Source: Candidatus Electronema aureum
Lineage (GTDB): Bacteria; Desulfobacterota; Desulfobulbia; Desulfobulbales; Desulfobulbaceae
Assembly (NCBI GenBank): GCA_004284765.1
Contig: NQJD01000036.1
Span: 1-24,552 of the forward strand
Direction of reading: 5' to 3'
DNA: 24,552 bases
The notes under the pieces are model-generated. The model was not told the origin of the DNA. It worked only from the letters and a program-made list of their open reading frames with translations, and made no database searches. Below are positions 1 through 6,522 of the stretch, piece after piece. Within the stretch, counting starts at the first letter, position 1; each line of letters opens with the position of its first letter. Position numbers and translations under genes: made by a program.

Positions 1-3
1 CTT

Positions 4-1086
4 TCATAAGAACGGCGTTTGGCTGGCGGGCATTCGCCCTCTGAAAACTGAGACCAAGTCGGAAGTCAACTTTTTCAATATTATATTGTTTTTAATGGTA
101 AATTCAATGTGTTTTTTAGGGAGCCGTCCGCTTTGCCACTCATGGTTCACCATTACCGTTGTCCTCGGGTTACTCCCGGAAGCGGAACCGATTATCGGCA
201 AAATATCTTTAAGTTCTCCCTGAAAGTCAGGAGAAATACGTTTAAGGACTTTCTCTCCAAAGTCAACCATCCGCTCTTTGTGCGGCGGTATATGAAACGG
301 AAGCTGAACTATCTTGTCGAGATAAGAGTGCCCTTCAAAATCGGCAATGCCGTATTCTGCACTGTACCTATGCTGCAAGTATCCCTCAATCACGCTTCGC
401 GCAACACCGAGAATAAATATAAATCCCGGCTGCGCAAGAACCAGCTTGATACTTTCCAACAGACTAATTGCCAGATCAGGAAAGCAGCGATCAAGATCAT
501 CTATTATGATAACTATTCGAAAATTTTTATTTTCTGAAAGTGCGGACAGCCTTTCAAACGCCTCATAGTAAAGGCTTCTATCAAGCAGAGGATCAGAAGT
601 GAGCTTTTCGTCCCGCTCAATCATGTCTTTTGCCACAAAGGATGCTTCTACTTCAGCGAATACCGGAAGTTTGATCGTTGATTTTACAGAAAATCCAGAA
701 GCAGCAGCAAGAAGCGATCTGATCAGTGTCTTGCCGCCTTCAGCTAATTTTTCCGTGAACGTCTTATTTCGTTCGAGTTCTCGAATAATTGTCGCGACAA
801 GTGGAACAATCGGATGTTCCTCACGTTCATATCGCCAAGCGTTAAACCAAACGGTTACAACGTTCTCTTTTTCATCCAAATATGACTGGATGAGACGCAT
901 CAAACTCGTTTTTCCTGTACCCCATTCCCCAAAAACACCAATAGTGAATGGTCCCGGCGTACCAACAGCAGCATCCCCTAATACTTTAGAATATGTGGAG
1001 AATCCGAGTCCATCTAAATCGGTGGAATTTCCTTCACCAAGAGCTTCATCCGTAAGCAATACTAACTGCGCCGTATCTGAATCCAT
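4..1086 (-). CDS. KAP family P-loop NTPase (short, no TM insertion)
   Basis: ORF 4..1104. Walker A GEWGTGKTS, FNAWRYE, Walker B IIIDDLDRC, YLDKIVQLPFHIP and NPR motifs. The track start at 1104 is TTG. The first ATG (MDSDTAQ) at 1086, with AAGG upstream, is preferred. TGA stop at 4-6, next to the window edge. Confidence 0.8.
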   Translation of the reverse strand: MDSDTAQLVLLTDEALGEGNSTDLDGLGFSTYSKVLGDAAVGTPGPFTIGVFGEWGTGKTSLMRLIQSYLDEKENVVTVWFNAWRYEREEHPIVPLVATIIRELERNKTFTEKLAEGGKTLIRSLLAAASGFSVKSTIKLPVFAEVEASFVAKDMIERDEKLTSDPLLDRSLYYEAFERLSALSENKNFRIVIIIDDLDRCFPDLAISLLESIKLVLAQPGFIFILGVARSVIEGYLQHRYSAEYGIADFEGHSYLDKIVQLPFHIPPHKERMVDFGEKVLKRISPDFQGELKDILPIIGSASGSNPRTTVMVNHEWQSGRLPKKHIEFTIKNNIILKKLTSDLVSVFRGRMPASQTPFL

Positions 1087-1153
1087 AGAGTAACCTTTTA
1101 TCAAAGGATCAGTCTGTTCGATTATCTGCTCAAAACGTTCTGCTAATTCTTCC

Positions 1154-1171
1154 GGCAGCCGTCTGGCTGCC
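1154..1171. other. Perfect hairpin GGCAGCC-GTCT-GGCTGCC (7-bp stem, 4-nt loop) upstream of the KAP gene
   Basis: Inverted repeat read directly from the sequence. No flanking T-run, so function is unknown. Confidence 0.5.
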
Positions 1172-1188
1172 CATTCCCGGCTGCAAAC

Positions 1189-1398
1189 GCCTCACAGCAC
1201 GCTTTCCGCGCTTCATGTCACGCTTGAAACGTCACGCGGCACGCATGATATGCCTCACGGCACGCTTTCCGCGCCACATATCACGCTTGAAATGCCTTGC
1301 AGCACGCTTTCCGCGCCACATGTCACGCTTGCAACATCACGCGGCACGCATGATATACCTCACGGCACGCTTGACATGCCGCATTGCAAGCGTCAAAT
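1189..1398. repeat. Phased tandem array of ten 21-bp units (105-bp higher-order duplication) sharing a CACGC core
   Basis: CACGC occurs at 1198, 1219, 1240, 1261, 1282, 1303, 1324, 1345 and 1366, exactly 21 bp apart; the tenth unit has CAAGC at 1387. Unit classes are X GCCTCACRGCACGCTTTCCGC, Y GCCACATRTCACGCTTGAAAY and Z RTCACGCGGCACGCATGATAT, in the order XYZXY | XYZXY'. Block 1189-1293 repeats as 1294-1398. Confidence 0.9.
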
Positions 1399-1427
1399 GC
1401 CCCGTTGCCAGCGGGCGGCAGGGCATT
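1396..1427. other. Bulged hairpin AATGCCC..TGCC-loop-GGCA-GGGCATT abutting the repeat array
   Basis: 7-bp outer stem (1396-1402 / 1421-1427) plus 4-bp inner stem (1406-1409 / 1417-1420), 7-nt loop. Lies downstream of the panD stop on the minus strand, with no U-tract. Confidence 0.4.
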
Positions 1428-1490
1428 CTCAAGCGAAGAAAGTCCGAGTTGCGCACTGCGAGCCGCCTTGAACGCTTCTGAAGCGAAGGC

Positions 1491-1853
1491 TCATATATCA
1501 AGCCGTTTCCGCACCTTGTTCTTTTCGTCGCAGAGCAGGATGGTCGGCTCGAAACCGGCCAGCTCGCTCTCATCATATTGGCCATAGGTGACAATGATCA
1601 CCAAATCGCCGACATGCCCCTTGCGGGCCGCCGCGCCGTTCAGGCCGATCACGCCGGAGCCAGCCTTGCCCCGGATGGCGTAGGTTTCAAAACGCTCGCC
1701 GTTGTTGATATTATAGATATTGACCTGCTCGAATTGAACAATGCCAGCGGCATTCATCAAATCTTCGTCAATGGTCATGCTGCCGTCGTAGTTCAGATCC
1801 GCCTGAGTGATTGTCACCCGGTGAATCTTGGATTTAAGCATTGTGCGCTGCAT
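1491..1853 (-). CDS. panD: Aspartate 1-decarboxylase proenzyme
   Basis: MQRTMLKSKIHRVTITQADLNYDGSMTID, with the self-cleavage Gly-Ser site in YDGS. Length of 120 aa is typical. Confidence 0.95.
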   Translation of the reverse strand: MQRTMLKSKIHRVTITQADLNYDGSMTIDEDLMNAAGIVQFEQVNIYNINNGERFETYAIRGKAGSGVIGLNGAAARKGHVGDLVIIVTYGQYDESELAGFEPTILLCDEKNKVRKRLDI

Positions 1854-1874
1854 GAAAAAAAATACCTTTGTATT

Positions 1875-2330
1875 TTAACTTTCAAAAACTTTTTTAAAGT
1901 CAACAGATACGCCGTCTGACTCAACAATCTCTTCATGAAACAATTTTTGTTCGTTATCACTAACGATAAAAATGCTTCTTCCATAAGGCTCGACAGTCCA
2001 GACTGTTTTAATCCCGGCTCTGACCAGCACTTTCGCCTTCTCAAGCAATTCTTGAATGTTCTGGCTTGACGAGATTACTTCAATTGCTAAAACAGGCAAT
2101 TCTTTCATCCGAAGAATATCTTCAAAAAAGTTTGGCTTGATTTTCTCTTTCTTGAAAACAGAGATATCAGGAGTCAGCCCGTTCTCGATATCCAGCGTCA
2201 ATTCTGGCAGTGGCTGCAAGGATTCATCTCGAAGAAGCTGACGCATGATTTGTGCGCAGATATAGCTGTGATTGAGCGAAGGCATTTCTTGCACCTGGTT
2301 TTCCAAAACTGCTTGTGTATCTTCAAGCAT
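1875..2330 (-). CDS. Uma2 (DUF820) family PD-(D/E)xK endonuclease-like protein, N-terminally short
   Basis: PDISVF and LAIEVISSS motifs, followed by AGIKTVWTVEP, fit the Uma2 core. The track start at 2339 is GTG. The ATG at 2330 is preceded by AAGGTGA at 5-nt spacing. Overlaps the cupin stop (ATGCTTGA). Confidence 0.6.
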   Translation of the reverse strand: MLEDTQAVLENQVQEMPSLNHSYICAQIMRQLLRDESLQPLPELTLDIENGLTPDISVFKKEKIKPNFFEDILRMKELPVLAIEVISSSQNIQELLEKAKVLVRAGIKTVWTVEPYGRSIFIVSDNEQKLFHEEIVESDGVSVDFKKVFES

Positions 2331-2670
2331 GATTGTCACCTTCTCTACCAGAATAATGCACCGCTATCCAAATTGTCAGCCTATCCGGGTCTGTCCAAGC
2401 AACCTTATGCTTATCATGGGCGGGAATATGCAGATAATCCCCTTTGTTCAGCGTTACCTGTTTGCCATTTTCAAACAAAATCGTTCCTGCGCCTTCAAGA
2501 ACAAGCACCCACTCGTTTTCTTCCTGATCGTACCAGCCTGATGTGGGCGACGTATGCCCTTTGGAAACAATGCGCTCGATGCGGATATTTTTATTTTGCA
2601 GGAGAACATCAAAGACCTCTTTCCTTGGCTCTGATGGAAACGATGTGAAGATATTTTCAAGCATCGACAT
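2323..2670 (-). CDS. Small single-domain cupin protein
   Basis: IRIERIVSKGHTSP..WYDQEENEWVLVLEGAG..GDYLHIPAHDKHKVAWT is a typical cupin beta-barrel signature, with His residues in the usual motif positions. Confidence 0.75.
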   Translation of the reverse strand: MSMLENIFTSFPSEPRKEVFDVLLQNKNIRIERIVSKGHTSPTSGWYDQEENEWVLVLEGAGTILFENGKQVTLNKGDYLHIPAHDKHKVAWTDPDRLTIWIAVHYSGREGDNHA

Positions 2671-2845
2671 CTTTTTGAATAAGTTGTTTGGATAACCTGT
2701 CCTTCGCTTCTTTCAATTCGGCTTCTGTATCTTCTGCGAATTTCCAGGCGAGAAAACTTGAAAAAGAAAAACATGCAGATAATGCGAGAAAAATTCTCTT
2801 AAAAAGAGAAGCCAAGAGAGCAGGGAAGACTAACCCTGCAGCCAA
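2657..2845 (-). CDS. Hypothetical 2-TM fragment (distal half of a split membrane ORF)
   Basis: The only possible start is TTG at 2845, with no SD. It is in the same frame as ORF 2891..3139, and the 45 nt between them are open and encode SIFLLLLSIIIFYSF. Probably not an independent gene. Confidence 0.3.
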   Translation of the reverse strand: MAAGLVFPALLASLFKRIFLALSACFSFSSFLAWKFAEDTEAELKEAKDRLSKQLIQKDVDA

Positions 2846-2890
2846 AAAAGAATAAAAGATAATTATAGATAATAGTAAAAGAAAAATTGA

Positions 2891-3139
2891 TTATAACCTA
2901 TAACGGATTTCATGCTGAACAGCATCGTCTCTCTCTTTGCTATTGGAAGCAAGTTTGTTTACTTGCTCTTCCCATGCCTTTTTACGAGCTAATGACTTAT
3001 TTTTCCACCATCCACTTTTTGAGAAAAAATTATCTATCGCACCCCTCAGATAAGATGAGAATACATTGATAGCGATGCCAGCAATCACCACGCTGAACCA
3101 CCATACAGGATTAGAAAGTTCGGTAAATATCCGTTCCAA
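2891..3139 (-). CDS. Hypothetical small membrane protein (1 TM plus a charged helix), proximal half of a split ORF
   Basis: TTG start at 3139 preceded by GGGGTGAT. The TM segment is VWWFSVVIAGIAINVFSSY. There is no ATG anywhere in the ORF. Ends at TAA 2891-2893. Confidence 0.4.
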   Translation of the reverse strand: MERIFTELSNPVWWFSVVIAGIAINVFSSYLRGAIDNFFSKSGWWKNKSLARKKAWEEQVNKLASNSKERDDAVQHEIRYRL

Positions 3140-3156
3140 TTTATCACCCCGCCATA

Positions 3157-3792
3157 TTATTTTTCTGCAAAAATCAGCTTGACGATAATTTCTTTCATTT
3201 TCTTCAGGATGCTGAAGATATCCTTGATGTCATCTTTTGTTGCATCATAGGCCAAGCTGCCTGCATAATCGTTTCCTTGCAGCACAACAAAAAACCAGAG
3301 CCGACCCATGACATAGCAACCATACATCGGCTTGCCGTCATGGTTCAGTTTCTGCGCCGCCATCATCGTGACCAGCAATTGCCCCAGTGGGTCGCCGGAT
3401 GCCTCATGCTCTTTCTTGAATTCGTGGATGAAGAAATACGGATGTTTGGGATAACGTCTGCCGCTGGCGACAAAGAAATCAACCATGCCGGAAAGAGTAT
3501 CGTTATCTATCGCTACAGATATTTCCCGTTCTATGAACGACTGATATTGCTCTTCGTCAAAATTAACGGCTGCCAGCAAGGGGAAGATGAACTTTCCTTT
3601 TAGCTCGCTTTCATTCCAATCCCAAACATGATCGAGCAGCTTTTCGCGCAACTCAGCTATCACAGCTTCTTCATCTGGCGTAAGTGGCGCAGCGGCATTC
3701 AGCCACTGATTCAGAGACTCAAGCTGCTTGCACGGATTGAGCGCAAAGGTTTCTTCAACTTCTGCAATCGTCCACTTGGAGAATGATTTCAT
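3157..3792 (-). CDS. HsdR_N-like / PD-(D/E)xK nuclease-fold protein (stand-alone, 211 aa)
   Basis: Pattern [13 protein letters not shown] .. GMVDFFVA .. [10 protein letters not shown] .. [11 protein letters not shown] matches the E..(D)..(E-x-K)..Q layout of type I restriction enzyme R N-terminal-like domains. The start overlaps the panC stop (ATGA at 3789-3792). Confidence 0.55.
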
Positions 3793-4637
3793 AGCACCAA
3801 TCCATTATCAATCAGCCGCACTCTGCCACCGATCTTCACTGCCAAGGCTATCACAGTCTTTTCATCAATTTCGGCAACCTGCTGCAAGGTATCTTGATGA
3901 ACAAAGCTGATGTAATCCACCTCTGTTTCCGGGAAAGAGTGGATGAAGTCCCGAAGCACGGTAGTCAGCCGCTCCGTACTCCGCTCGCCCTCTGCTGCAA
4001 TTGTGCGGGCCAAAGCGAGGGCGCGGGAAAGACTGAGCGCGGATTCCCGCTGCTGTGGCAGAAGATAGGTATTACGGGAACTCATCGCCAGCCCGTCCGC
4101 TTCACGGACAATGGGATGCGCGACAATCTCCACGCCCAGATTGAGATCAGCGGTCATTCGGCGAATTACGGCGAGCTGCTGAAAATCTTTTTGGCCAAAC
4201 ACAGCTACGTCAGGTTGAACGATATTGAAGAGCTTACAGACTACTGTAGCCACGCCAGCGAAATGACCGGGCCGAGAAGCCCCACAAAGCTGCCCAGTCA
4301 ACTCCGCGCCAACCGCCACCGTCGTGCTAAATCCAGCAGGATACATCTCCGCCGCTATTGGTGCAAAGAGAACGGATACGCCCGCCGCTTCGACCATTGC
4401 GCAATCCCGCTCAAAATTTCTCGGATAGGCGGCTAAGTCCTCCTGCGGACCAAACTGGGTCGGATTGACAAAAAGACTCACCGCCACGAAATCAGCAAGC
4501 TGCCCGGCGCGGCGCATCAGGCTGAGGTGGCCTTCATGGAAAAAGCCCATTGTCGGCACCAAGCCGATGCGATGCCCCGCCTTGGCCTGCTCTTTGGCCC
4601 AAGCGGTCATCTCGGCAGGATGGCGGATAATTTGCAT
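3789..4637 (-). CDS. panC: Pantoate--beta-alanine ligase
   Basis: [20 protein letters not shown] (HIGH-type motif) and full-length PanC-like sequence of 282 aa. Confidence 0.95.
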
Positions 4638-5363
4638 TTACTTCAGCAGACGATTCAAGCTACCCTGCACAATTTCCCGCTCAGGAAAACTCTGCGCAAC
4701 AGCCTTACCCTCTTTCTTTTTGCCCTCGCCTAACTCAATCAGGCCCATGTACTGCTGGTACATTTGCACCGCTTTGTCTTTTTTGTTCGTAGCCTCATAA
4801 ATCCGACCTAAGCTGTCCAAAGCCATCGCCTCAAAGCCTTTGAAACCCTTCAGCTGCTGATACACGCCTTCCGCCTTGTCGAACTGTTTTTCTTGCTCAT
4901 AAAGGCCGCCCAAATTGACCAACAGTAGCGGCTTGAGCGGACTTTTTGCTGTGGTCTCTGCATCGACAACAGTCAGCTTGGTGATTGCCTCTTTGGTTTT
5001 GCCTTCTGCCTGCTCAAGATGAGCCAGCGCGATTTTGCTCCACGTTGCAGAGGGCGTGGAGTCGTATTCGTCGGCTACTTTCTGAAGCGCGGCTTTTTTC
5101 AGCTGCGCATCTTTAAGCTCAATAGCTTGATCATAGGCTAAAGCGGCTTTATTCAGAGTGTGTTCACGCCAAGAGCCGTAGAGTGAAACTACCGTGACAA
5201 CTACTGCTGCCGAGCCAGCCACTCGCCAAATAGTTTTTTGATTTTTCTGAAGAAAAGTGATCAGGGCCGGAGGCAGATGAAGCTGATCAAGGATGCCGGG
5301 AGTGCCGACAGCAGCTTGTTCTTGCAGGGTGACATTAAAAACGTTCTTGGGTTTGCTGTCCAT
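4638..5363 (-). CDS. Membrane-anchored TPR-like protein (YfgM-like architecture)
   Basis: N-terminal TM segment (WRVAGSAAVVVTVVSLYGSW), then TPR-like helical repeats (ALAYDQAIELKD.., LGGLYEQEKQFDKAEGVYQQ). Its TAA stop abuts the panC ATG. Confidence 0.75.
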   Translation of the reverse strand: MDSKPKNVFNVTLQEQAAVGTPGILDQLHLPPALITFLQKNQKTIWRVAGSAAVVVTVVSLYGSWREHTLNKAALAYDQAIELKDAQLKKAALQKVADEYDSTPSATWSKIALAHLEQAEGKTKEAITKLTVVDAETTAKSPLKPLLLVNLGGLYEQEKQFDKAEGVYQQLKGFKGFEAMALDSLGRIYEATNKKDKAVQMYQQYMGLIELGEGKKKEGKAVAQSFPEREIVQGSLNRLLK

Positions 5364-5687
5364 GCTCTTTTCTCAACGTTGGGTGGTTTGTGATCTGACT
5401 TTCTCCTGCGGGGTAGCAGCAGCCTCAACTCCTGCTTGCGCGAATAAAGCAATTATTATACCGTGCGTCCTGAAAAAGACATTAATCTTTTGCAGATTCG
5501 AGACTCATTTTGCCGCTTTCGCTCATGAACAACAACAAGCTCGATGAAGTTGCGTGGCCTCACTGCGGCCTGTGTCGCCAGTAACACATGACGACTCATA
5601 TCCTATACTTCCGACCAAAGTGCTACTCCTCCGCCAGAGAAAGATTGGCTGCTTAGTGACAATCAGAACGCTGGAAGGAGATCAATC

Positions 5688-6059
5688 CTACAACTTGCTA
5701 TTCTGACAGCCAGAGCTGACGCATTCCCGCAGGCGGTCTTGCAAAAATTGCGAGCGTTTGACAGTGACAGAGGTGGCGCAGTCGAGATTGATATAAAATT
5801 GATCAGCTTCATGCTTTGAGCAGCGGCTATTTCGTTCACTCATCCAGTCTAATTGACCAGTCTTGAGTTTTCTTTTACCATCTTCATTTAATTTATCGCT
5901 CAGTTTTTTGTAGTTTTCATTCAATTCTTTGTCAGCTTCCTGATAAACTTTGTTTAAGCAATATAAGCCGTCAAAGTCATTCTTTGGATTGTCGCAAGCT
6001 GAGTTGGCAAATGCGGTGTTTGAACAACACAAAATTAAAGTCACGATCAGTTTTTTCAT
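5688..6059 (-). CDS. DUF1311 / LprI-family periplasmic protein
   Basis: Signal peptide MKKLIVTLILCCSNTAFA. Conserved Cys pattern with ADKELNENYKKL .. QLDWMSERNSRC, typical of the lysozyme-inhibitor LprI-like domain. Confidence 0.8.
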   Translation of the reverse strand: MKKLIVTLILCCSNTAFANSACDNPKNDFDGLYCLNKVYQEADKELNENYKKLSDKLNEDGKRKLKTGQLDWMSERNSRCSKHEADQFYINLDCATSVTVKRSQFLQDRLRECVSSGCQNSKL

Positions 6060-6162
6060 TCTGTTTACCTATTTATTTTTTACTGTAAAAGCAGTCTCTT
6101 TGCCCACTGAATTCTCCGTTGTGCCAATAGCAGATTACTGTTCTTGCTTTGCGCTAATGTAT

Positions 6163-6522
6163 TCATCGTACCAAACAACATGAACTACAGCCTGCAGATG
6201 TGTCAACTTGTTGTCCCAAGACCATCGCTTTCCACGCCGTGATGCCGCCCTCCAGATAACAGGTATCCACCTTTCTTTTCTGAAGGAATTCCGCCACCAT
6301 CTTGCTTAATGCACCACCCTTGAGACAATAAACAACGACCCGGCGGCCTGCTGGTATCTCGGCACCCCACTGCTCCAGCTCTTCATAGTCGTACCATTTT
6401 GCGCCAGAGATCATGTCGGGATCGTTCTTGTAGTCCTGCCTACGGCGCACATCAAGGATCAGTACGTCATCGTTGTTCTCCAGCAGGTATTTCAGCTCTT
6501 CCGGCTTCACCGTGTTTTCCAT
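6163..6522 (-). CDS. Single-domain rhodanese-like sulfurtransferase with a Cys-rich C-terminal tail
   Basis: LILDVRRRQDY .. VVVYCLKGGALS .. LEGGITAW. Internal ATG at 6522 preceded by GAGGA. The longer track ORF (to 6726) overlaps the kinase 3' end. Confidence 0.85.
   Translation of the reverse strand: MENTVKPEELKYLLENNDDVLILDVRRRQDYKNDPDMISGAKWYDYEELEQWGAEIPAGRRVVVYCLKGGALSKMVAEFLQKRKVDTCYLEGGITAWKAMVLGQQVDTSAGCSSCCLVR

What the first reader, a model, noticed from the sequence alone, without database searches (positions are those of the whole stretch)
1875..3792. Five accessory ORFs threaded into the panC-panD operon with overlapping stops and starts: candidate nuclease/membrane/cupin module
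The minus-strand order runs as follows:
- TPR gene TAA, directly abutting the panC ATG.
- The panC stop overlaps the HsdR_N-like PD-(D/E)xK start (ATGA).
- A 17-nt gap carrying GGGGTGAT leads to the small 3-TM membrane ORF.
- A 14-nt overlap leads to the cupin.
- An 8-nt overlap (ATGCTTGA) leads to the Uma2 PD-(D/E)xK-fold protein.
- A 21-nt gap leads to panD.

panC and panD are commonly neighbours in one operon. Here 1.9 kb of unrelated, visibly more AT-rich coding sequence sits between them, with no room for its own promoters or terminators. Two nuclease-fold proteins, a membrane protein and a small ligand-binding barrel resemble a sensor/effector conflict module, but match no named defence or TA system I know. 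Expression would be tied to an essential CoA-precursor operon, which is an unusual arrangement.
Basis: partly seen in the sequence, partly recalled or inferred. Interest (0 to 1): 0.7.

Follow-up and report, generated by a model that had tools for sequence, protein, structure and literature searches.

The report
Mixed accessory genes between panC and panD
In this cable bacterium, the two vitamin B5 genes panC and panD are separated by three intact unrelated genes and one broken one.

Summary
The window comes from Candidatus Electronema aureum, a cable bacterium. The "3-TM membrane ORF" is cut by an in-frame TAA at 2891-2893, so the "five ORFs" are three intact genes plus two fragments of one disrupted gene.

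Comparison of about 17 cable-bacteria loci shows that only the small cupin is always present between panC and panD. The other occupants come and go:
- The 211-aa PD-(D/E)xK-fold protein is usually present, absent in two lineages, and catalytically dead and fused to the cupin in one.
- Uma2 occurs only in Electronema-type loci.
- The membrane gene is intact only where the 211-aa gene is absent.
- Other species carry HicAB, AbiJ, a 68-aa membrane protein or a beta-helix plus RlaP pair in the same interval.

Non-cable Desulfobulbales have panC and panD adjacent. Outside cable bacteria, homologues of the 211-aa protein (73 loci) and of the cupin (two checked) are never together or next to pan genes.

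The best reading is stepwise accretion of stand-alone genes that are read through from the panC operon. E. coli offers a precedent, with the rpnC nuclease gene between panC and panD. A functional nuclease-cupin pair is not excluded.

The parts
4638..5363 (-). TPR_21-family protein (241 aa). This is the first gene of the conserved TPR-panC block, and its stop abuts the panC start.
   Evidence: ORF; PF09976, 1.5e-13. It is syntenic upstream of panC in cable bacteria and in non-cable Desulfobulbales.
3789..4637 (-). panC, pantoate-beta-alanine ligase (282 aa).
   Evidence: PF02569, 4.9e-105. dN/dS against orthologues is 0.08-0.15.
3157..3792 (-). 'PDDEXK211', a 211-aa stand-alone PD-(D/E)xK-fold protein. 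Its family has no Pfam model. The putative catalytic residues are D105, E124 and K126, plus Q138. Its start overlaps the panC stop (ATGA).
   Evidence: - PADLOC profile PD_DExK ('Cas-associated'): 7e-17.
- Pfam: only sub-threshold PDDEXK_9 matches.
- AF2 model: pLDDT 91.8, pTM 0.90.
- Foldseek PDB hits: chains of mammalian mitoribosome large-subunit structures (top hits), Cas4 (8d3l), HsdR fragment (3h1t), Exo5, AdnAB, MGME1, SduA.
- E124, K126 and Q138 are invariant and D105 is at least 90% conserved across 32 homologues.
- dN/dS is 0.06-0.10.
- The family has 1132 cluster representatives at 50% identity with E<=0.001; among the 150 best listed, most are single-domain proteins of 200-230 aa.
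2657..3139 (-). Disrupted 'mem160' gene. This is a roughly 160-aa predicted 3-TM membrane protein interrupted by an in-frame TAA at 2891-2893. It leaves an 82-aa ORF (2891-3139, TTG start, one TM) and a 62-aa remnant (2657-2845) with no convincing start.
   Evidence: - The in-frame stop is seen.
- Intact 154-163-aa homologues exist (P0241, P0243-P0245, L181). Close homologues P0241 and P0242 have K at the stop position; other homologues vary there.
- L090 and L096 carry independent frameshifts.
- Hydropathy profile.
- Window versus L090: pN/pS is 0.07 for the N-terminal half and 0.35 for the C-terminal half, on small counts.
2323..2670 (-). Small single-domain cupin (115 aa, or 113 aa from the ATG at 2664). 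It is the one constant occupant of the panC-panD interval in cable bacteria.
   Evidence: - Cupin_2 1e-10.
- Match to the C-terminal half of TIGR03890, 4.4e-25, below that model's cutoff.
- PDB 2OPK 'hypothetical protein', 1.5e-26.
- 1302 homologues.
- Present in every cable-bacteria locus that covers the interval.
- dN/dS is 0.05-0.23.
1875..2330 (-). Uma2-family putative restriction-endonuclease-fold protein (151 aa from ATG 2330, or 154 aa from GTG 2339). It overlaps the cupin stop by 8 nt.
   Evidence: - PF05685, 2.7e-14, 53.5 bits against a cutoff of 27.
- PADLOC candidate PDC-S03, 3.3e-10.
- Orthologues sit at the same position in L178, L179, L175 and L092, the last one interrupted.
- Absent from all Electrothrix loci.
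1491..1853 (-). panD, aspartate 1-decarboxylase (120 aa), 21 nt after the Uma2 stop.
   Evidence: PF02261, 6.9e-52; dN/dS 0.10-0.16.
4..1104 (-). KAP-family P-loop NTPase (366 aa) downstream of panD. It is a further lineage-specific, defence-type insertion next to the cassette and is not part of the panC-panD interval.
   Evidence: - PF07693, 6.2e-39.
- PADLOC PDC-S20 3.4e-33, QatA-like, PifA-like.
- In four other cable-bacteria loci (L085/L086, L091, L181, P0241 contig) panD is followed directly by the DegT aminotransferase; in L085/L086 two small ORFs lie between them. In this genome the DegT gene lies beyond KAP.

Best explanation
The 1.9-kb insert is not one system. It is the local state of a variable patch that built up between panC and panD in the cable-bacteria lineage.

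Shown:
- Non-cable Desulfobulbales have TPR-panC-panD contiguous.
- Every cable-bacteria locus examined carries a small cupin in the gap, usually followed by a 68-aa two-TM protein (p68).
- Around this core, other genes are gained, lost or broken lineage by lineage. These are the 211-aa PD-(D/E)xK protein, the 160-aa membrane protein, Uma2, a HicAB toxin-antitoxin pair, and a beta-helix plus RlaP pair. An AbiJ gene sits just upstream of panC in one locus, and a KAP NTPase sits just downstream of panD in this genome.
- This genome has the 211-aa gene, a nonsense-disrupted membrane gene, the cupin and Uma2, and has lost p68.
- In a neighbour-joining tree the 211-aa gene appears to have entered once. 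The cable clade is monophyletic and nested among Beggiatoa, Achromatium and Parabeggiatoa sequences at up to 75% identity.
- Since then the 211-aa gene has been inherited with panC under purifying selection as strong as that on panC and panD.

Inferred:
- The genes lack their own promoters. They are transcribed by read-through from the TPR-panC promoter and translated through coupled or closely spaced starts (ATGA, ATGCTTGA, Shine-Dalgarno-like GGGGTGA and GGTGA).
- Each intact product acts on its own. The 211-aa protein and Uma2 would be solitary Mg2+-dependent nucleases of the kind found scattered in giant and filamentous bacteria, possibly with a defence or DNA-maintenance role. The cupin would be a small ligand-binding barrel of unknown ligand.
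- Sitting inside a compact operon upstream of panD makes clean deletion unlikely, which would favour persistence.
For: - Source organism and identical copies of the locus.
- Outgroup loci L003, L004 and L012 have TPR-panC-panD with 52-120-nt gaps, and none of the 80 panC loci encodes any cassette protein.
- Variable composition in cable-bacteria loci:
  - L178 (proteins 84-98% identical; PDDEXK211 92%) has the same order without the membrane gene.
  - L179 has HicAB, PDDEXK211, cupin, Uma2 and p68.
  - L085 and L095 have PDDEXK211, cupin and p68.
  - L181 and the P0241 contig have an intact membrane gene, cupin and p68, and no PDDEXK211.
  - L088 has the fusion plus p68, beta-helix and RlaP.
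  - L175 has an AbiJ gene between TPR and panC.
  - L090 and L175 have no panD downstream.
- HicA and HicB are confirmed by Pfam; AbiJ and Abi_C.
- Membrane gene: in-frame stop here, independent frameshifts in L090 and L096, intact homologues of about 160 aa elsewhere.
- 73 non-cable PDDEXK211 loci have no cupin, pan gene or Uma2 nearby and no neighbour family shared by more than 5 loci. Some carry tandem paralogues.
- The two non-cable cupin contexts checked are unrelated.
- dN/dS values. Neighbour-joining tree.
- No excess of promoter-like or terminator-like sites and no flanking repeats.
- Precedent: rpnC lies between panD and panC in E. coli K-12, with two separate introductions reported in PMC5350276.
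Against: - PDDEXK211 and the cupin are adjacent, often with overlapping stop and start (TAATG, ATGA), in 13 cable-bacteria loci from at least two genera, and they are fused in one species. This is what a functional pair would look like.
- PDDEXK211, cupin and Uma2 are kept together in five Electronema-type loci.
- Co-transcription and translational coupling are inferred from spacing only. No expression data were available.
- All cable-bacteria loci are orthologous, so neither linkage nor independence can be judged from independent events.
- No function has been shown for any of the products.
Confidence: 0.6

Rival explanations
1. PDDEXK211 and the cupin (with or without Uma2) form a genuine two-part module specific to cable bacteria. 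The nuclease would be the effector, and its activity would be gated or partnered by the small cupin as a ligand sensor. The module would be expressed with the pantothenate genes. The membrane gene and the other occupants would be incidental.
For: - The two genes are adjacent with 1-4-nt overlaps or short gaps (7-19 nt) in every cable-bacteria locus that has both genes and no membrane gene between them.
- A single-ORF fusion exists in Electrothrix YB6, seen in a complete genome and in a Logan assembly.
- Both genes are under strong purifying selection.
- The catalytic residues E124, K126 and Q138 are invariant and D105 is at least 90% conserved in 32 homologues.
Against: - The association traces to one evolutionary origin, since all the loci are orthologous.
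- 73 non-cable PDDEXK211 loci have no cupin, and the two non-cable cupin contexts checked have no PDDEXK211.
- Two cable lineages keep the cupin without PDDEXK211.
- In this window and in L090 and L096 the membrane gene lies between the two.
- In the fusion protein the nuclease motif is destroyed (E124V, K126S, Q138R) and the branch is long. The fusion therefore looks like decay or repurposing, not a Rosetta-stone link.
- Other longer family members carry no cupin.
- The PADLOC library has no match for the cupin.
Confidence: 0.2
2. The constant core of cupin plus p68 is a cable-bacteria-specific accessory of pantothenate or beta-alanine metabolism, for example a sensor, transporter subunit or maturation factor. 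The nuclease-fold genes would be hitchhikers.
For: - The cupin is present between panC and panD, or directly after panC, in every cable-bacteria locus covering the interval, including those without PDDEXK211.
- p68 follows in 10 loci.
- The cupin is conserved at 56-85% identity across cable bacteria, with dN/dS 0.05-0.23.
Against: - Cupin homologues at 64-66% identity in Azohydromonas and Smithella are not near pan genes.
- None of the 80 panC loci from other lineages encodes this cupin nearby.
- p68 is missing from this window, L178, L175 and L090.
- In L090 and L175 the cupin is not followed by panD.
- As far as I know, no pan pathway step uses a cupin; this rests on my own knowledge.
Confidence: 0.1
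3. One reading: all five ORFs act together as one new sensor/effector conflict system: two nucleases, a membrane protein and a cupin.
For: - The genes are tightly packed on one strand with overlapping junctions.
- Two of the proteins match PADLOC profiles: PD_DExK at 7e-17 and PDC-S03 at 3.3e-10.
- Defence-type genes (KAP NTPase, HicAB, AbiJ, GmrSD) cluster around this site in cable bacteria.
Against: - The membrane gene is broken here and absent from L178, whose proteins are 84-98% identical.
- No other locus carries all the components intact.
- Each family occurs without the others.
- The cupin and the membrane protein have no PADLOC match.
Confidence: 0.03

Closest known systems
rpnC (yadD) between panD and panC in Escherichia coli K-12
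   Same: An accessory nuclease gene occupies the panC-panD interval of an otherwise conserved pantothenate cluster. It has been reported as introduced twice independently into that intergenic region (PMC5350276). Rpn proteins are toxic DNA endonucleases with antiphage activity (PMC10400941, abstract).
   Different: - rpnC belongs to a different family (Transposase_31/YhgA-like PF04754) with no sequence match to the window proteins.
- It is a single gene on the opposite strand with its own intergenic spaces.
- The cable-bacteria genes are co-oriented, overlap their neighbours and number up to seven families.
Uma2 family (Pfam PF05685, formerly DUF820; PADLOC candidate PDC-S03)
   Same: Window ORF 1875-2330 scores 53.5 bits against a cutoff of 27 and matches PDC-S03. 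It is a single-domain protein of typical size that occurs as a solitary gene.
   Different: Here it is embedded in a biosynthetic operon with an 8-nt overlap to the upstream gene. No function has been shown for the family; the name 'putative restriction endonuclease' is an annotation only.
Stand-alone PD-(D/E)xK nucleases of the Cas4/RecB/HsdR-N type (PADLOC 'PD_DExK, Cas-associated' profile PDLC01472)
   Same: The fold and the D...ExK...Q motif match. The PADLOC profile scores 7e-17. Foldseek finds Cas4 (8d3l), the HsdR fragment 3h1t, Exo5, AdnAB and MGME1.
   Different: - No Pfam or NCBIfam family is reached, and HsdR_N is not matched.
- There are no cas genes or restriction-modification genes in the window.
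- The four cysteines that ligate the Cas4 iron-sulfur cluster are not evident; this is by reading only.
- The family is distinct, comprises about 1100 clusters, and consists mostly of proteins of about 210 aa.
Small 2OPK-type cupins (Cupin_2 PF07883; C-terminal half of TIGR03890 Nif11/cupin proteins)
   Same: It matches PDB 2OPK (112 aa, 'hypothetical protein') at E 1.5e-26 over the full length. Cupin_2 is above its cutoff. The family is widespread, with 1302 homologues.
   Different: It lacks the Nif11 domain and falls below the TIGR03890 cutoff (88 against 159 bits). No canonical HxH metal motif is visible in the sequence. Its function is unknown.
Defence islands and chromosomal hotspots for variable accessory genes
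   Same: At one conserved chromosomal position, different relatives carry different small conflict-type genes: HicAB, AbiJ, Uma2, a KAP NTPase, a GmrSD gene upstream, and an RlaP nucleotidyltransferase.
   Different: - No integrase, tRNA or flanking repeats are present.
- The genes are threaded inside an operon, with overlapping stops and starts.
- Part of the content (cupin, p68, PDDEXK211) is old and vertically inherited, not in rapid turnover.

Membership tests
Uma2 (PF05685) | The sequence matches the Pfam model above the gathering score. | tested here: met
   53.5 bits against a cutoff of 27, E 2.7e-14, residues 12-138.
Uma2 (PF05685) | Restriction-endonuclease-like fold with acidic active-site residues retained. 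| not tested
   - No structure was predicted for this ORF.
- The PDB sequence search found nothing.
- A D (PDISVF) and an E (IEVISS) are conserved among the window, L178, L179 and L175 orthologues, by reading only.
   No HsdR_N hit at E<=0.1 for the window protein or for any of 32 family members. Only PDDEXK_9 matches (13 of 32 members, best E 3.2e-4), with the window protein below its cutoff.
PD-(D/E)xK nuclease superfamily | An alpha-beta-beta-beta-alpha-beta core with D...(D/E)xK residues on the central strands. | tested here: met
   - AF2 model with pLDDT 91.8.
- Foldseek matches to Cas4, HsdR (3h1t), Exo5, AdnAB, MGME1 and SduA.
- E124, K126 and Q138 are invariant and D105 is at least 90% conserved in 32 sequences.
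PD-(D/E)xK nuclease superfamily | Metal-dependent nuclease activity. | not testable with these tools
   This needs a biochemical assay.
Cupin_2 (PF07883) | The sequence matches the Pfam model above the gathering score. | tested here: met
   41.6 bits against a cutoff of 27.2. Full-length homologue of PDB 2OPK at E 1.5e-26.
Cupin_2 (PF07883) | Canonical metal-binding motif 1, G(X)5HXH(X)3-4E(X)6G. The motif is taken from general knowledge of cupins. | tested here: inconclusive
   By reading, the segment WYDQEENEWVLVLEG has no HxH, while His residues occur in HIPAHDKHKV. No structure or metal analysis was done.
Nif11/cupin protein TIGR03890 | A full-length match above the NCBIfam cutoff, including the N-terminal Nif11 domain. 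| tested here: not met
   88.3 bits against a cutoff of 159.45. Only model positions 69-171 (the cupin half) are matched.
Named multi-gene anti-phage system (PADLOC-DB v2) | All components of a described system are present together. | tested here: not met
   Only single-profile hits were found: PD_DExK 'Cas-associated' and PDC-S03 (a candidate whose name suggests a single-gene class). There is nothing for the cupin or the membrane ORFs, and no cas genes in the window.
Conserved multi-gene module (general criterion) | The same gene set co-occurs in non-orthologous or independently acquired loci. | tested here: not met
   - 73 non-cable PDDEXK211 loci lack the other families.
- Cupin contexts differ.
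- Composition varies among the orthologous cable-bacteria loci.
Type II toxin-antitoxin pair | Two small adjacent genes that match known toxin and antitoxin families. | tested here: not met
   No toxin-antitoxin family is matched by any window ORF. HicA and HicB are present only in the relatives L091, L093, L096 and L179.
panC-panD operon | Both genes lie on one strand and are expressed as one transcript. | not testable with these tools
   Same strand, with no excess of terminator-like sites between them. No transcript data were available.

The most novel reading that the evidence does not exclude
PDDEXK211 and the cupin are a previously undescribed two-component nuclease module fixed in the ancestor of cable bacteria. 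The nuclease would have been acquired from giant sulfur bacteria. Its expression would be hard-wired to CoA-precursor synthesis, and it would be functionally antagonistic to, or redundant with, the 160-aa membrane protein, which is intact only where the nuclease is absent. More broadly, the panC-panD junction would be a recurrent landing site for PD-(D/E)xK nuclease genes in distant phyla (rpnC in Enterobacteriaceae; PDDEXK211 and Uma2 here).
Probability: 0.12. Interest if true: 0.55.

Novelty: new member of a known kind. Interest (0 to 1): 0.3.

Why it matters
- It shows that a tidy, overlapping, same-strand gene string inside a housekeeping operon can be an accretion product and not a system. 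This is a caution for guilt-by-association discovery of defence systems.
- It defines an unnamed PD-(D/E)xK family of about 1100 sequence clusters. The closest relatives outside cable bacteria that carry an organism name are mostly giant sulfur bacteria (Beggiatoa, Parabeggiatoa, Achromatium, Thioploca, Thiomargarita), which is consistent with gene flow between these co-habiting filamentous organisms.
- It adds a second, independent example, after E. coli rpnC, of nuclease genes lodged between panC and panD.
- If the nuclease-cupin pair proved functional, it would be a lineage marker of cable bacteria with unknown biology.

Tried and rejected
- A profile search of the PDB sequences with the PDDEXK211 alignment gave only chance-level hits to tuberin.
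- A PDB sequence search with Uma2 gave nothing.
- An AF2 model of the 345-aa fusion protein, built to look for a docked nuclease-cupin arrangement, was too poor to use (pLDDT 60, pTM 0.36).
- tblastn of PDDEXK211 against plasmid and phage collections gave no match. PHROGs gave only weak hits of unknown function.
- Rfam found no RNA family in 1-6500.
- A repeat search found no direct or inverted repeats bounding the cassette, so a transposon or integrative element with recognisable ends was rejected.
- Longer family members were scanned for independent cupin fusions and none was found.
- Literature searches on cable-bacteria genomics found no mention of this locus, the cupin, pantothenate genes or nucleases. 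A search for the locus-tag prefix CDV28 returned only irrelevant papers.
- Recoding of the in-frame stop was considered and rejected. The codon is TAA, not TGA. Close homologues have AAA there. Two related lineages carry frameshifts at other positions.


Full report
**Source and observation.**
The 211-aa protein of the window is found, identical, on the 2.94-Mb record OW818638.1 (GCA_942492785.1). Sources name this protein as from Candidatus Electronema aureum. It also occurs on three short Logan contigs with the same gene order. The window is therefore chromosomal DNA of a freshwater cable bacterium (Desulfobulbaceae). The remainder of the window is housekeeping: acs, a hybrid histidine kinase, an AIR-synthase-family protein, glyS, cytochrome c maturation genes and manC.

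On the minus strand the ORFs are:

| Gene | Coordinates |
|---|---|
| TPR | 4638-5363 |
| panC | 3789-4637 |
| 211-aa ORF | 3157-3792 |
| 82-aa ORF | 2891-3139 |
| 62-aa ORF | 2657-2845 |
| cupin | 2323-2670 |
| Uma2 | 1875-2330 |
| panD | 1491-1853 |

- TAA directly abutting ATG
- ATGA overlap
- 17-nt gap with GGGGTGAT
- 14-nt overlap
- ATGCTTGA overlap
- 21-nt gap

The cassette is AT-richer than panC and panD (42.3% against 55.9% and 53.4% GC). The GC3 of the 211-aa gene (0.54) is unremarkable for this window. Only Uma2 (0.42) and the membrane fragments (0.32-0.37) are clearly low.

**The error in the observation.**
The 82-aa and 62-aa ORFs lie in the same frame, separated by a TAA at 2891-2893 and 45 nt. 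Read through with a sense codon, they give a 160-aa protein. It has an N-terminal hydrophobic segment and a broad hydrophobic region at residues 80-126, about three TM segments in all.

- Intact homologues of 154-163 aa exist (P0241, P0243-P0245, and L181 in Ca. Electrothrix laxa). Close homologues P0241 and P0242 have K at the position of the stop; other homologues vary there.
- Electronema sp. JC (L090) has AAA at that codon but carries a +1 frameshift about ten codons upstream.
- L096 has a different frameshift plus further indels.
- The TAA is identical in the NCBI record and two Logan assemblies of this organism.

The "3-TM membrane ORF" is therefore a disrupted gene, and the "five ORFs" are three intact genes and two fragments. 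Between the window and L090, the N-terminal 72 codons show pN/pS of 0.07 (3 non-synonymous, 11 synonymous changes). The C-terminal 77 codons show 0.35 (7 and 6). The counts are small. They are compatible with a still-useful 82-aa single-TM product and a decaying remnant.

**What the individual proteins are.**

*The 211-aa protein* reaches no Pfam or NCBIfam family.
- It has only a sub-threshold match to PDDEXK_9, and 13 of 32 family members behave the same way.
- It matches the PADLOC profile 'PD_DExK, Cas-associated' at 7e-17.
- An AlphaFold2 model from 32 homologues is confident (pLDDT 91.8, pTM 0.90).
- Foldseek against the PDB returns chains of mammalian mitoribosome large-subunit structures as the top hits. 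From my own knowledge these correspond to mL37 and mS30, which have restriction-endonuclease-like folds.
- Further Foldseek matches are Cas4 (8d3l), the HsdR fragment 3h1t, Exo5, AdnAB, MGME1 and SduA.
- E124, K126 and Q138 are invariant and D105 is at least 90% conserved in the alignment.

It is therefore a PD-(D/E)xK-fold protein with an intact catalytic signature. The specific label HsdR_N is not supported. An exhaustive profile search finds 1132 cluster representatives (678 at E<=1e-10). Among the 150 best listed, most are single-domain proteins of 200-230 aa. None of ten longer members scanned carries a cupin.

*The cupin* is a full-length homologue of the structural-genomics protein 2OPK (E 1.5e-26). 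It has 1302 homologues.

*Uma2* is a clear family member and matches the PADLOC candidate PDC-S03.

**Comparative test 1: outgroups.**
A scan of species-representative genomes with PanC returned 80 loci. The nearest are non-cable Desulfobulbales, with PanC 59-64% identical. L003, L004 and L012 have TPR-panC-panD contiguous, with gaps of 52-120 nt. None of the 80 loci encodes any of the cassette proteins. The 1.9 kb is thus an insertion relative to the ancestral arrangement.

Interrupted panC-panD pairs also occur elsewhere, with unrelated genes (L078, L080). In E. coli K-12, the nuclease gene rpnC lies between panD and panC on the opposite strand. Kingston et al. [quoted passage not shown]

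**Comparative test 2: orthologous loci in cable bacteria**.

| Locus | Content after panC |
|---|---|
| Window | PDDEXK211, mem160 (nonsense), cupin, Uma2 |
| L178 (proteins 84-98% identical) | PDDEXK211, cupin, Uma2 |
| L179 | HicA, HicB, PDDEXK211, cupin, Uma2, p68 |
| L175 | PDDEXK211, cupin, Uma2, then unrelated genes; AbiJ lies between TPR and panC |
| L092 | PDDEXK211, cupin, Uma2 (interrupted), p68 |
| L091 | HicA, HicB, PDDEXK211, cupin, p68 |
| L096 | HicA, HicB, PDDEXK211, mem160 (frameshifted), cupin |
| L090 | PDDEXK211, mem160 (frameshifted), cupin, then pyrK and pyrD |
| L085, L095 (Electrothrix) | PDDEXK211, cupin, p68 |
| L088 (Electrothrix YB6) | PDDEXK211-cupin fusion, p68, beta-helix, RlaP |
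| L181 (E. laxa), P0241 contig | intact mem160, cupin, p68; no PDDEXK211 |

HicA, HicB, AbiJ and Abi_C are confirmed by Pfam.

The only constant occupant is the cupin. p68 is a 68-aa protein with two hydrophobic segments. It is the next most frequent occupant (10 loci) and is missing from the window. No locus other than this organism's own carries the window's set. The closest relative, L178, lacks the membrane gene altogether.

**Comparative test 3: non-orthologous homologues.**
A metagenome scan with the family alignment gave 80 loci. The 73 loci that are not cable-type carry PDDEXK211 homologues (40-75% identity) without any cupin, Uma2, panC or panD in the flanks. Clustering of 296 neighbouring ORFs finds no family shared by more than 5 loci. 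Four loci have tandem paralogues.

The cupin homologues from Azohydromonas and Smithella (64-66% identical) lie next to an ABC-transporter binding protein and a C_GCAxxG_C_C protein respectively. PDDEXK211 has no match in the plasmid or phage collections.

**History of the 211-aa gene.**
Its dN/dS against cable-bacteria orthologues is 0.06-0.10, like panC (0.08-0.15) and panD (0.10-0.16). The cupin gives 0.05-0.23. Its amino-acid divergence tracks that of PanC: 88-91% against L090, L175 and L091 (PanC 84-87%) and 78% against Electrothrix (PanC 71-72%); L092 is lower at 77%.

In a neighbour-joining tree of 120 homologues the cable-bacteria sequences form one clade. That clade is nested among Achromatium, Beggiatoa PS and Parabeggiatoa sequences (no bootstrap support, so indicative only). 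Identity to Beggiatoa PS is 75%, far more than expected between Desulfobulbaceae and Gammaproteobacteria by descent. Transfer between cable bacteria and giant Gammaproteobacteria has been noted for other genes (PMC10580974).

**The fusion.**
Electrothrix YB6 encodes a 345-aa ORF made of PDDEXK211 (60% identical) joined to the cupin (61% identical). This would normally count as evidence of a functional link. However, the fusion has V, S and R at the otherwise invariant E124, K126 and Q138, and it sits on a long branch.

In relatives the two genes overlap by 1-4 nt (TAATG, ATGA), so a small change suffices to fuse them. I read the fusion as weak evidence at most. An AF2 model of it was uninformative.

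**Expression.**
Consensus promoter and terminator scans show no excess over shuffled sequence (7 against 4.9 and 3 against 5.7). No Rfam family is present, and no repeats bound the cassette. Shine-Dalgarno-like sequences precede the membrane ORF (GGGGTGA) and Uma2 (GGTGA).

Co-transcription with panC and panD is therefore plausible, but it remains an inference. In this genome the premature stop sits about 220 nt upstream of the cupin start. Any translational coupling from the membrane gene into the cupin should therefore be lost here. In L090 and L175 panD is not downstream at all, so the linkage to panD is not obligatory.

**Conclusion.**
The sequence observation is right apart from the missed stop codon. 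The interpretation as one five-gene conflict module is not supported.

The best explanation (confidence about 0.6) is a lineage-specific patch of independently acquired genes threaded into the TPR-panC...panD transcription unit. It combines:
- an old core (cupin and p68),
- a nuclease-fold gene probably acquired once from giant sulfur bacteria,
- later Electronema-specific additions (Uma2),
- recurrent visits by small conflict genes (HicAB, AbiJ, KAP NTPase).

The main rival (about 0.2) is that PDDEXK211 and the cupin work together. A metabolic role for cupin plus p68 (about 0.1) and the original five-gene system (about 0.03) are less likely.

The finding is a new instance of known kinds of things: solitary PD-(D/E)xK and Uma2 genes, a small cupin, and a variable hotspot. 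E. coli rpnC provides a published parallel. Interest is modest.

Noticed in passing
window 1184-1401: A degenerate tandem array lies in the 386-nt spacer between the panD stop and the KAP NTPase start. It has a 21-nt period (7.4 copies, 60% matches) and also reads as a 105-nt unit in 2.1 copies at 83%. It is rich in the motif AAGCGTG. A 44-nt imperfect inverted repeat (1291-1334 and 1384-1427) overlaps it. Function unknown.
   Followed up: partly
window 4-1104: A KAP-family P-loop NTPase (PADLOC PDC-S20 3.4e-33, with QatA-like and PifA-like matches) lies directly downstream of panD. In four other cable-bacteria loci (L085/L086, L091, L181, P0241 contig) panD is followed by a DegT-type aminotransferase gene, directly or after two small ORFs, so this is probably another lineage-specific, defence-type insertion.
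   Followed up: partly
L176, L181 and the P0241 contig, compared with the window, L090, L096 and ten other cable-bacteria loci: There is an apparent mutual exclusion. The 160-aa membrane gene is intact only in loci that lack PDDEXK211. Where PDDEXK211 is present, the membrane gene is absent or disrupted, by three different mutations that all fall within codons 68-83. The sample is small and not phylogenetically independent.
   Followed up: partly
window 2657-2664 and 2323-2330: Both overlapping junctions, membrane gene to cupin and cupin to Uma2, read ATGCTTGA, so both downstream proteins begin with MLE. This may be coincidence or a trace of how the genes were joined.
   Followed up: no
L092 2755-3283 and 4279-4446: The Uma2 orthologue is interrupted by an insert of about 115 nt that shifts the frame. 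A second, partial panD-like fragment (68% identity) lies about 360 nt downstream of the intact panD.
   Followed up: no
L175 2593-3517: An AbiJ-type abortive-infection gene is inserted between the TPR gene and panC. It is called as two overlapping ORFs: AbiJ_NTD3 (139 aa) and Abi_C/HEPN-like (178 aa). This breaks the TPR-panC abutment seen in the other loci.
   Followed up: partly
L163, L165, L167, L170: PDDEXK211 homologues occur as tandem paralogue pairs (36-42% identical to the query) in metagenomic contigs of unknown origin. One 434-aa protein (P0252) contains two copies in a single ORF.
   Followed up: no
L180 (E. coli K-12, NC_000913.3 146314-148795): rpnC lies between panD and panC. Taken together with the cable-bacteria loci and L078/L080 (Acidobacteriota), this suggests the panC-panD junction is interrupted repeatedly in distant lineages. 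Whether nuclease genes are over-represented there was not tested.
   Followed up: partly
L088 1641-3356: In Electrothrix YB6 a GmrSD-type (DUF262/DUF1524) restriction gene lies about 1 kb upstream of the TPR-panC block, separated from it by one 253-aa ORF. This adds to the defence-type genes around this chromosomal site in cable bacteria.
   Followed up: no
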